Assembly (NCBI GenBank): GCA_009914755.4
Contig: CP068257.2
Span: 17,504,001-17,568,000 of the forward strand
DNA: 64,000 nucleotides
From: the human T2T-CHM13v2.0 reference genome, Homo sapiens
Direction: 5' to 3'
Positions 38,872-40,977 of this stretch are shown one piece after another. A program made the translations under genes and the position numbers. Each line of letters opens with the position of its first letter. The first letter of the stretch is position 1. Under the pieces are notes generated by a model, which worked only from the letters and a program-made list of their open reading frames with translations, was not told the origin of the DNA and did not search any database.

Positions 38872-39234
38872 AGCATTTCTTTTGTAAGCATGTGTTTTAT
38901 ATACTTTATGCTATGCAGACATTAGTCAGTGTTTTTAGCAACTTCCAGAAAATACATGAGGAGAGTGTACTTTTGAAGCTAAAATACATGGCTTCAATTA
39001 TGTTTTGAAATGAAAGACTTTTGTTGTAAAATTGTTGAATTCTTCATTAAATGACTCGGGTTTTAAGACAGCTGTAATAATAACTAACATTACATTACTA
39101 ATGTGATTATGATCTTCCTGTGTATTACAAACTATATTTCATGCTGGGTGATGGGACTTAGGGCTTACTGTGAGATGATTCTAGCTTCATAGCCCAGATT
39201 GCTGGTTATTAGACTCCAGCTCATACGGCATCAC
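38872..39234. repeat. Left arm of a ~360-bp inverted repeat (partner at 40624-40977)
   Basis: The reverse complement of 38872-39234 aligns along its whole length at about 88-90% identity with 40624-40977, for example catctcacagtaagccctaag(t/c)tccatcacccagcatgaaatatagtttgtaatacacaggaagat(t/c)ataatcacatt. Confidence 0.9.
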
Positions 39235-39350
39235 TCTTTCTTATTCTTAGCAAGAACATGGACAAGTTTTCATTTTCAGTGTACCTTCCTCACCCTACAG
39301 AACGGTTGAGAGGTTATATCTTAGGCCTGTTAAAATCATGGTTGCTTTCA

Positions 39351-39650
39351 GCCGGGCCAGTGGCTTATGCCTGTAATCCCACCACCTTGGAAGGCTGAGG
39401 CGGGAGGATCATGAGGTCAGGAGATCGAGACCATCCTGGCTAACATGGTGAAACCCCATCTCTACTAAAAATGCAAAAAATTACCCGGGCGTGGTGGTGG
39501 GCGCCTGTAGTCCCAGCTACTCGGGAGGCTGAGGCAGGAGCATGGCGTGAATCTGTGAGGCAGAGCTTGCAGTGAGCCAAGATCGTGCCACTGCACTCCA
39601 GCCTGGGTGACAGAGTGAAACTCCCATCTCAAAAAAAAAAAAAAAAAAAG
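39351..39650 (+). mobile_element. AluY-like SINE, apparently young: 19-nt pure poly(A) tail and a perfect 18-bp TSD
   Basis: gccgggccagtggcttatgcctgtaatcccaccaccttgg...ggatcatgaggtcaggagatcgagaccatcctggctaacatggtgaaaccccatctctactaaaaatgcaaaaaatt...a(19). TSD aaatcatggttgctttca at 39333-39350 and again at 39651-39668. Confidence 0.95.
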
Positions 39651-40623
39651 AAATCATGGTTGCTTTCAGAAAATGTCAACGTTAAAATTACATCTACATA
39701 AAAACTTGGTTACAGCAGGACATACCTCCTCCAAATAAAAGTATGTTGTGATACCTCTTTCTTTTTGTAGCCATATCTCTGCAGATATATTTCTGTATAT
39801 TTTTATATTAAAAAAGTAACAGATCTTAAATATGTCTCCTTGTGTTTTCTGTACTTTACCATATTTTTATGACACTTAAACATTTTACACTTAAGAATAA
39901 CACAGATATAAAATTTGTAAAGAAATTAAAATATATCATTTTTAGTATCAGTAGTGCAAATGCAAAAGTTAAAATGAAAAAGTGTCTTCCTGAATCTCCC
40001 TGAACTGTGAAAGAGATTTTCTAGAAAATAAATTTACTAGAGTGCTTGAAAAAAGCAAGTATGCAAACTACATGACTCAAATTTGGAAAAATTTGATATT
40101 AAGTGAATGCAAATTAGCCTTGATGGACAAAAAGCAATAAAAGATTATCCCGGATTGCTCTTCCCTTTACTAAAGCAGATGTTGACAGAAATATTGCAAT
40201 CCCCACTATGTTGACAAGCTACAACCCACAAATGACATTGCTATTTTCAACAGAGAAAAAGTTCACAGCTTAAAGCTTTTCACCAATAATAATACTGTGC
40301 TCAATTTTAAAATAATATTTATATTTTATAGATAATGATTGAAAATTTTATGAATGAAATAATAATGAAACCTTCTACCAATACTCAGAAAGAAAACACA
40401 GGTATGGCTGTGTTAAGAAATTCAATGATAATATTAAAAACAGCTAGCTCTTAATCATATTTCAGGCCATGTTCAAATTTCTTATGCATATAAACTTTAT
40501 GCACATAATGCATTTAAGATACAACATATCAACCATTCTCTAGGGTGAGGAAGGTTTGCTGAATATGAATACTTGTCCATGTGCTTCTTAGAAACGAACA
40601 ACAACAAAAAAAACAATGAAGCT

Positions 40624-40977
40624 GCATGAGCTGGAGGTTAATATCCAGCAATTCAGAATATTAAGCTACAGCCATCTCACAGTAAGCCCTAAGTTCCATC
40701 ACCCAGCATGAAATATAGTTTGTAATACACAGGAAGATTATAATCACATTGGTAATGTTAGTTATTATTACAGCTGTATTAAAACCTGAGTCATTCAATA
40801 AAAAACTCAACAATTTTACAACAAAGTTCCTTGTTTCAAAACATAATTGAAGCCATGTATCTTAGCTTCAAAGCACACTCTCCTCATGTATTTTCTGAAA
40901 GTTAAAAAAAAAAACAACCATTGACTAGGGTCTGCATAGTGTAAGTCTATAAAACACATGCTTAGAAAAGAAATATC
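40624..40977. repeat. Right arm of the ~360-bp inverted repeat
   Basis: See the left arm. The inner ends also pair: ...ctccagctcatacgg on the left corresponds to ...gcatgagctggagg on the right. Confidence 0.9.

What the first reader, a model, noticed from the sequence alone, without database searches (positions are those of the whole stretch)
38872..40977. About 360-bp inverted repeat pair (~88-90% identity) flanking a ~1.4 kb loop; the loop was later hit by a young AluY
The reverse complement of 38872-39234 aligns along its full length with 40624-40977, including the inner junctions (...ccagctcatacgg and ...gcatgagctggagg). The 1.39 kb spacer is unique AT-rich sequence apart from an AluY at 39351-39650 with a perfect 18-bp TSD, so the palindrome predates the Alu. 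The outer left end abuts the poly(A) of an L1 3' fragment (38591-38848). Long-armed inverted repeats of this kind can extrude hairpins or cruciforms and are associated with replication stalling, deletions and rearrangements. Alternatively this could be an unannotated non-autonomous DNA transposon with unusually long TIRs, or an ancient local inverted duplication.
Basis: seen in the sequence. Interest (0 to 1): 0.6.

Follow-up and report, generated by a model that had tools for sequence, protein, structure and literature searches.

The report
Old local inverted duplication, human DNA
Two ~460-base copies of one AT-rich stretch face each other across about 1.2 kb of primate non-coding DNA; this is most likely the decayed relic of a single local copying error and looks ordinary, with no sign of function.

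Summary
The inverted repeat is real and larger than reported. The arms are 38867-39323 (457 nt) and 40515-40983 (469 nt). They are 87% identical without gaps and 82% with gaps, with an alignment score of 524 against a shuffle maximum of 33. The spacer is 1,191 nt, or 873 nt before the Alu inserted. Both ends of the similarity are sharp.

No target-site duplication flanks the unit or either arm. There is no coding remnant, no Rfam family and no second copy in the 64-kb window. Nothing matched in the accessible metagenome, prokaryote-genome, viral, plasmid or protein collections, although these are poor proxies for a human genome search.

The best reading (about 0.5) is a one-off local inverted duplication by fold-back or template switching, roughly 30-70 Myr old and decaying neutrally. 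The rivals are a long-TIR non-autonomous transposon, two copies of an unrecognised repeat, and a tails-out retrocopy. I could not exclude them because neither Dfam nor other primate genomes were available.

With 13% divergence and a 1.2-kb spacer, cruciform extrusion in duplex DNA is unlikely. The Alu is not young (about 11% from AluY), and because it lies in the spacer it does not date the repeat. Interest is low.

The parts
38867..39323 (.). Left arm of the inverted repeat (457 nt). It is T-rich on the + strand (A 28%, T 37%).
   Evidence: Gapped alignment with the reverse complement of 40515-40983 and blastn self-hit with E 2.5e-130.
39324..40514 (.). Spacer of 1,191 nt (873 nt before the Alu). 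It is single-copy and AT-rich, with no self-complementarity and no ORF longer than 53 aa.
   Evidence: Searches show no similarity above shuffles. One search lists the ORFs. One search gave no Pfam hit in any of the six frames.
39352..39650 (+). Alu (AluY/AluSc-like) with a 20-nt A-tail, inserted in the spacer 28 nt from the inner end of the left arm. Its perfect 19-bp TSD copies lie at 39333-39351 and 39651-39669.
   Evidence: TSD scan. Alignment to AluY shows 32 differences in 284 columns. Rfam gave SRP and mir-1268 sub-threshold hits. Other Alus in the window match it.
40515..40983 (.). Right arm of the inverted repeat (469 nt). It is A-rich on the + strand (A 39%, T 28%). It carries a 13-nt (GTT)n/(AAC)n expansion and a 7-nt A-run expansion relative to the left arm.
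   Evidence: indel list; composition.
38573..38848 (+). Neighbouring L1 3'-end fragment with an A-tail. It is context only and not part of the repeat. 18 nt separate it from the left arm.
   Evidence: blastn shows 86% identity to the L1 3' end at 8585-8856. tblastn matched the ORF2 C-terminus. There is no inverted similarity across it.

Best explanation
This is a locus-specific inverted duplication. A ~460-bp stretch of AT-rich non-coding DNA was copied once, in reverse orientation, about 0.87 kb from its source. The result is arm, single-copy spacer, inverted arm.

The most likely mechanism is a fold-back or template-switch event during break repair or replication. A resected or nascent 3' end anneals to its own strand a few hundred bases back, copies about 460 nt, and is then rejoined. 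I place this in an early primate or anthropoid ancestor.

Since then both copies have drifted neutrally: 57 substitutions and 9 indels, two of them microsatellite or homopolymer slippage. An Alu landed in the spacer and an L1 fragment landed next to the unit. The structure has no detectable function today.

What is shown: the repeat, its sharp boundaries, the absence of a TSD, of coding capacity, of an RNA-family match and of other copies in the accessible data.

What is inferred: the mechanism, the age and the neutrality.
For: - Both inner and outer edges of the similarity are sharp, and no further inverted similarity lies in the spacer or flanks.
- No direct repeat flanks the whole unit or either arm. 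This holds for exact repeats of 5 nt or more and for 8-15-mers with up to 25% mismatch. The best scores (5-6) are no better than for 300 random position pairs, whereas the same scan recovers the Alu's 19-bp TSD.
- The arm has no other copy in the 64-kb window. Every other inverted pair of at least 200 nt there is Alu/Alu or L1/L1 at 70-81% identity.
- The pre-Alu spacer of 873 nt lies within the 766-70,466-bp range of single-copy spacers at sequenced human fold-back inverted duplications (PMC3907307).
- There is no transposase or RT remnant (Pfam on six frames; L1 ORF2 tblastn gave only E=0.03). There is no Rfam family.
- No hits came from conserved 20-34-mers in JGI metagenome contigs, 185,579 prokaryote genomes (known to carry human contamination) or IMG/VR. 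None came from plasmids, nor from the six-frame translation of an arm against 5.8 billion proteins.
- Transitions that would preserve G:U pairing show no strand bias (14 vs 19), so nothing suggests selection on an RNA hairpin.
Against: - The decisive tests could not be run. No Dfam/RepeatMasker library, no human genome-wide search and no orthologous primate loci were available, so 'single-copy' rests on weak proxies.
- Which arm is the copy is unknown. Strand composition is ambiguous: spacer and right arm are A-rich, while left arm and left flank are T-rich.
- No junction microhomology can be demonstrated, because any would be absorbed into the arm ends.
- In the sense of the right arm, both outer ends finish in ...TATAAAACACATGCTTA(G/C)AAAAGAAAT..CTAAAAA followed by A-rich sequence. 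That resembles a polyadenylated 3' end.
- TA dinucleotides flank the T/A runs, so a retro-derived origin or a Tc1/mariner-type origin is not excluded.
Confidence: 0.5

Rival explanations
1. One insertion of a non-autonomous class II (cut-and-paste) DNA transposon with unusually long (~460 bp) terminal inverted repeats and an ~870-bp core. The family would be either a catalogued one I could not recognise without Dfam or an uncatalogued low-copy one.
For: - The architecture is TIR-core-TIR with sharp outer ends.
- There is no coding capacity, as expected for a non-autonomous element.
- The per-arm divergence of 0.07 falls in the period when, to my knowledge of Pace & Feschotte 2007 (not read here), the last primate DNA transposons were active.
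- TA dinucleotides flank the terminal T/A runs, which is compatible with a Tc1/mariner TSD.
Against: - No TSD of 5 nt or more is present, nor a degenerate 8-15-mer above background. A flanking TA is uninformative in 66% AT sequence.
This rests on reading the sequence and on memory.
- There are no other copies in the window or in any accessible collection.
Confidence: 0.17
2. Two independently inserted, full-length copies of the same ~460-bp interspersed repeat that happen to lie 1.2 kb apart in opposite orientation.
For: Both arms share the same start and end, as full-length copies of one consensus would. The Alu/Alu and L1/L1 inverted pairs in this window arose in this way.
Against: - Neither arm has its own TSD.
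- 87% pairwise identity would need a family only about 6-7% from its consensus. From memory, the primate families of that age are L1PA, AluS/Y, young LTRs with TG...CA ends, and a few DNA transposons. The arms match neither the L1PA nor the Alu sequences in the window and lack TG...CA ends.
- A family abundant enough to pair by chance should have appeared among human contamination in the scanned collections, yet there were no hits.
Confidence: 0.08
3. A retrotransposition-derived 'tails-out' structure. Two L1-mediated reverse transcriptions of the same polyadenylated RNA were primed on the poly(A) tail from both nicked target strands. The two cDNAs (about 460 nt and about 1,330 nt) were then joined head-to-head, so that spacer plus right arm is one retrocopy and the left arm a shorter inverted one.
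For: - In the sense of the right arm, both outer ends finish with TATAAA about 30 nt before a shared CTAAAAA run that continues as A-rich sequence.
- Spacer and right arm share the same A-over-T strand bias.
Against: - No TSD flanks the unit.
- The A-rich tails are short and impure.
- The left flank is also T-rich, which explains the composition equally well.
- The geometry differs from documented twin priming, where the inverted part comes from upstream, non-overlapping RNA sequence (my knowledge of Ostertag & Kazazian 2001, not read here).
- No parent gene could be sought.
Confidence: 0.06
4. Whatever its origin, the repeat is maintained as a functional hairpin-RNA (endo-siRNA or dsRNA) locus, or it acts as a present-day fragile site.
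For: - The arms are predicted to pair strongly. The RNA duplex energy is -548 kcal/mol against -122 for shuffles, and 400 of 457 left-arm bases pair with the right arm in the minimum-free-energy fold of the whole unit.
- Some intergenic inverted duplicates are expressed and structurally stable (PMC5398296).
- Inverted repeats down to 75% identical and up to 30 kb apart can still interact in long single-stranded DNA (PMC10164571).
Against: - The arms have decayed to 87% with 9 indels and show no bias toward pair-preserving changes (14 vs 19).
- There is no Rfam match in the arms and no CpG island or promoter-like feature in the window.
- In duplex DNA, a 1.5-kb spacer alone lowers rearrangement about 31-fold compared with 12 bp, and divergence lowers it further.
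Confidence: 0.03

Closest known systems
Fold-back / template-switch inverted duplications with a single-copy spacer (Hermetz et al. 2014, PMC3907307)
   Same: The geometry is the same: non-inverted copy, single-copy spacer, inverted copy. The spacer size (873 nt before the Alu) lies within the reported 766-70,466 bp. There is no TSD.
   Different: The reported cases are Mb-scale duplications with terminal deletions that arise via dicentric chromosomes. Here only about 460 bp was copied and the chromosome stayed intact, so the synthesis must have been short and rejoined locally. Junction microhomology cannot be scored here.
Inverted Alu pairs and long inverted repeats as fragile motifs (Lobachev laboratory; PMC10164571)
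   Same: Two arms of about 300-460 bp in inverted orientation that can in principle anneal within one strand.
   Different: Fragile pairs in duplex DNA are nearly identical and separated by less than about 20-100 bp. This pair is 13% diverged and 1.2 kb apart, and its arms are not Alu.
Long-TIR / foldback-type non-autonomous DNA transposons (for example MULE-type elements such as human Ricksha, or Drosophila FB)
   Same: Long terminal inverted repeats around a short non-coding core.
   Different: No TSD, no recognisable terminal motif, no other copies found, and no internal subrepeats in the arms (TRF).
PATRRs (palindromic AT-rich repeats on 11q23, 22q11 and 17q11)
   Same: AT-rich sequence with arms of a few hundred bp.
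   Different: As I recall them, PATRRs are near-perfect palindromes with essentially no spacer. This structure has a 1.2-kb spacer and 87% identity.
Expressed intergenic inverted duplicates / hpRNA loci (Chen et al. 2017, PMC5398296)
   Same: It meets that study's broad definition of an inverted duplicate, apart from the present spacer exceeding 1,000 nt. The predicted hairpin is stable.
   Different: There is no evidence of expression or of pair-preserving evolution.

Membership tests
Class II DNA transposon (non-autonomous, long TIR) | Terminal inverted repeats at the exact ends of the element | tested here: met
   Arms 38867-39323 and 40515-40983 are 87% identical, with sharp outer ends.
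Class II DNA transposon (non-autonomous, long TIR) | Target-site duplication flanking the element | tested here: not met
   No direct repeat of 5 nt or more (exact), nor an 8-15-mer with up to 25% mismatch, scores above random position pairs. Only a TA dinucleotide is present on each side, which is uninformative in AT-rich DNA.
Class II DNA transposon (non-autonomous, long TIR) | Multiple dispersed copies in the genome | tested here: inconclusive
   None in the 64-kb window. None in metagenome, prokaryote-genome, viral or plasmid collections or in the protein collection. No human or primate genome could be searched.
Class II DNA transposon (non-autonomous, long TIR) | Termini shared with a known autonomous superfamily member, or a transposase remnant | tested here: not met
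   Pfam on six frames gave no hits. The ends, TTTTTAGCATTTC.../...GAAATATCTAAAAA, differ from the hAT, Tigger, mariner and piggyBac termini as I recall them (the consensus termini are from memory).
Two independent copies of an interspersed repeat | Each copy has its own insertion signature (TSD, or poly(A) plus TSD, or TG...CA ends) | tested here: not met
   No TSD around either arm. There are no TG...CA ends.
Two independent copies of an interspersed repeat | Match to a catalogued repeat consensus (Dfam/Repbase) | not testable with these tools
   No repeat library is available. The arms match neither the Alu nor the L1 sequences present in the window.
Fold-back / template-switch inverted duplication | Inverted copies separated by a single-copy spacer of roughly kb size, without a TSD | tested here: met
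   The spacer was 873 nt before the Alu, with no internal self-complementarity. No TSD is present. The range in PMC3907307 is 766-70,466 bp.
Fold-back / template-switch inverted duplication | Short inverted microhomology at the spacer/duplication junction | tested here: inconclusive
   The last 7 nt of the arms (TATCTTA) match perfectly, but microhomology cannot be told apart from the arm itself.
Fold-back / template-switch inverted duplication | An outgroup species carries one arm plus the spacer but lacks the other arm | not testable with these tools
   No primate genomes are accessible.
L1 twin-priming inversion | Both segments are L1 sequence, with the inverted segment coming from the region upstream of the direct one | tested here: not met
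   The arms are not L1, and the two segments are the same sequence, not adjacent ones.
PATRR-type palindromic fragile site | Near-perfect palindrome with little or no spacer | tested here: not met
   87% identity and a 1,191-nt spacer.
Hairpin-RNA gene (hpRNA / miRNA-like) | Pair-preserving evolution or a match to an RNA family | tested here: not met
   G:U-compatible transitions are 14 (+ strand) versus 19 (- strand). Rfam gave no hits in the arms. Expression is not testable.

The most novel reading that the evidence does not exclude
The unit is a copy of an uncatalogued, low-copy, primate-lineage DNA transposon with ~460-bp terminal inverted repeats (foldback-like). If so, a cut-and-paste family escaped annotation in the human genome, active at roughly the time the known families died out.
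Probability: 0.05. Interest if true: 0.5.

Novelty: new member of a known kind. Interest (0 to 1): 0.17.

Why it matters
It matters little if the best reading holds. It would be one more small, decayed inverted duplication among the very many inverted repeats of the human genome. About 4.3 million inverted duplicates were counted in PMC5398296, most of them short.

Its modest value is as a clean non-Alu, non-L1 example of the arm-spacer-arm geometry at sub-kilobase scale. With primate orthologues, it could show the junction signature of a small fold-back or template-switch event.

It would matter more only if it proved to be an unannotated transposon family, or a transcribed dsRNA source that is edited or sensed.

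Tried and rejected
- Extending the repeat. I looked for further inverted similarity inside the spacer and beyond the L1 and right flank. There is none above shuffles.
- TSD scans. I scanned around the unit and around each arm, both exact and degenerate, with random-pair controls. Nothing was found, while the Alu's TSD was recovered as a positive control.
- Other copies. I tried blastn against the window and conserved 34-, 29- and 20-mers against JGI metagenome contigs, GTDB genome contigs and IMG/VR. I also tried blastn against PLSDB, exact ORF look-up and the six-frame arm translation against 5.8 billion proteins. All were negative. These collections hold only sporadic human contamination: one of five control ORFs was found, in a human-gut metagenome contig. 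The negatives therefore argue only against a high-copy family.
- Coding remnants. Pfam on six frames gave no hits. L1 ORF2 tblastn gave one weak hit, E=0.03, at 39854-39979, which I judge spurious.
- RNA families. Rfam at gathering and at E<=1 gave only Alu-derived hits.
- MIR spanning the right outer boundary. A MIR crossing that boundary would have marked the right arm as the original. The 31-nt match scored 15 against a shuffle maximum of 17, so I rejected it.
- Structure within one arm. A single arm folds no better than its shuffles (z = -0.11). TRF found no subrepeats in the arms.
- Strand composition as a guide to which arm is the copy. It is ambiguous.
- Clustering of identity as a sign of gene conversion. 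By my own approximate calculation, not a tool result, the longest perfect run of 43 nt is not unusual for 87% identity (P about 0.17).

Full report
**What is there**

The window is primate, and almost certainly human. It holds at least 14 Alu copies, L1PA-like elements and no CpG island. A stretch of it is 99.5% identical to a contaminating contig in a human-gut metagenome.

At the reported place there is a genuine inverted repeat. A gapped alignment of 38867-39323 with the reverse complement of 40515-40983 gives 391 matches, 57 mismatches (33 transitions, 24 transversions) and 30 gap columns in 9 indel events. That is 87.3% identity without gaps and 81.8% with gaps. The local score is 524, against a maximum of 33 in 100 shuffles.

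Those are not junctions. After a 13-nt (GTT)n length difference the similarity runs on for about 90 nt, to 39323 and 40515 (pair I3). The arms are therefore 457 and 469 nt, and the spacer is 1,191 nt.

**Boundaries and surroundings**

The similarity stops sharply at all four edges.
- The pre-Alu spacer (873 nt) has no self-complementarity above shuffles.
- A shared GGCCTG hexamer 47 nt further in does not extend.
- The sequence left of the neighbouring L1 fragment shows no inverted similarity to the right flank, so the L1 did not split a longer arm.

The L1 3' fragment spans 38573-38848 and is 86% identical to the other L1 3' end in the window. It ends 18 nt from the left arm.

The Alu (39352-39650) has a perfect 19-bp TSD and a 20-nt A-tail. 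Fifteen of these are CpG-type, and it carries the AluSc-like CCTGGCTAACA. It is therefore not notably young. Its non-CpG divergence of about 7% equals the per-arm divergence. Because it lies in the unique spacer, it says nothing about whether the repeat arose before or after it.

**What it is not**

- Coding: no ORF exceeds 58 aa. Six-frame translations of the unit hit no Pfam family even at E<=10. L1 ORF2 pieces from the window give only one weak match, E=0.03.
- RNA families: Rfam finds nothing in the arms. The only sub-threshold hits are SRP and mir-1268 in the Alu.
- Internal structure: one arm alone does not fold better than its shuffles, and the arms contain no tandem subrepeats.
- Target-site duplication: none flanks the whole unit or either arm, whether exact (5 nt or more) or degenerate (8-15-mers with up to 25% mismatch). 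The best scores equal those of random position pairs, while the Alu TSD is recovered.
- Termini: the ends read TTTTTAGCATTTC... and ...GAAATATCTAAAAA. This is unlike the hAT, Tigger/pogo, mariner or piggyBac termini as I remember them, and they are not TG...CA.

**Is it a repeat family?**

This is the crux, and I could test it only indirectly.
- The arm has no other copy in the 64-kb window. Every other inverted pair of at least 200 nt there is Alu/Alu or L1/L1 at 70-81% identity.
- The longest blocks identical in both arms, probed as a 34-mer, a 29-mer and a 20-mer, have no exact match in JGI metagenome contigs, in one genome each of 185,579 prokaryotic species, or in IMG/VR.
- blastn against PLSDB finds nothing.
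- A concatenated six-frame translation of the right arm finds nothing among 5.8 billion protein clusters.

These collections contain human DNA only as contamination. One of five control ORFs from this window was present, in a human-gut metagenome contig. The negatives therefore argue against an abundant family but not against a low-copy one.

Independent insertion also needs a family only about 6-7% from its consensus to give 87% pairwise identity. From memory, the primate families of that age are L1PA, AluS/Y, young LTRs and a few DNA transposons, and none of them looks like these arms.

**Most likely origin and behaviour**

The evidence fits a one-off local inverted duplication best. The pieces are arm, single-copy spacer and inverted arm; no TSD; sharp edges; and a spacer within the 766-70,466-bp range seen at sequenced human fold-back junctions (PMC3907307).

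I infer a fold-back or template-switch event. A 3' end annealed to its own strand about 0.9 kb back, copied about 460 nt and was rejoined.

The Kimura distance between the arms is 0.14, or 0.07 per arm. That corresponds to about 32 Myr at 2.2e-9 substitutions per site per year and about 70 Myr at 1e-9, which places the event in early primate or anthropoid times.

Decay since then looks neutral. The indels are mostly slippage in A-runs and a GTT microsatellite. Transitions that would keep G:U pairs are not favoured on either strand (14 vs 19).

**Structural hazard**

The two arms would pair strongly if single-stranded. The duplex energy is -548 kcal/mol against -122 for shuffles, and 400 of 457 left-arm bases pair with the right arm in the minimum-free-energy fold of the unit.

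In duplex DNA, however, yeast Alu-IR data show steep losses (PMC10164571).
- Recombination falls about 300-fold when the spacer grows from 12 to 100 bp.
- Gross rearrangements fall about 31-fold at a 1.5-kb spacer.
- Activity declines exponentially with divergence.

Only within long single-stranded tracts do repeats down to 75% identity and up to 30 kb apart still interact. The repeat is thus at most a conditional, low-level hazard.

**Rivals**

1. A long-TIR non-autonomous transposon (0.17). The architecture fits, but there is no TSD, no known terminus and no other copies.
2. Two copies of an unrecognised repeat (0.08).
3. A tails-out double retrocopy (0.06). In the sense of the right arm, both outer ends finish with TATAAA about 30 nt before a shared CTAAAAA run that continues A-rich. 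Spacer and right arm also share an A-over-T bias. Against this, there is no TSD, the tails are poor, and the T-rich left flank explains the composition equally well.
4. A functional hairpin-RNA locus (0.03).

**Verdict**

The hairpin/cruciform emphasis and the Alu-based relative dating are not supported.

Without Dfam and primate orthologues, confidence in the origin stays moderate (0.5). The feature is ordinary.

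Noticed in passing
window 5166-8856 (+) and 10301-14010 (-): A long L1 carries several open ORF2 pieces (5261-8647). An older L1 lies in the opposite orientation, 70-75% identical. Together they form a much larger L1/L1 inverted pair with Alus between them.
   Followed up: partly
window 15092-17317; locus L001 1-2226: A human-gut metagenome contig (ENA ERZ980513) is 99.46% identical to this stretch (12 mismatches in 2,226). 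It then diverges inside an L1, probably a chimeric assembly through a repeat. A spurious 136-aa ORF (window 16633-17043) from it sits in the protein collection, an example of human contamination annotated as a microbial protein.
   Followed up: partly
window 42535-42578 and 55769-55827: Two (CA)n microsatellites, each followed by (TA)n.
   Followed up: no
window 40586-40610 and 40897-40912: The right arm carries an (AAC)n/A-run expansion (13 nt extra) and an A-run expansion (7 nt extra) relative to the left arm. The left arm has a 4-nt ATTA tandem duplication near 39101-39106. This is ordinary slippage after the duplication.
   Followed up: yes
window 39482-39533: The Alu's right monomer scores 65 bits against Rfam mir-1268 (gathering score 83), a known Alu-derived miRNA family. 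The score is below threshold, so this is not a miRNA call.
   Followed up: no
window 31222-31265: An Alu tail has expanded into an (AAAT)n microsatellite.
   Followed up: no
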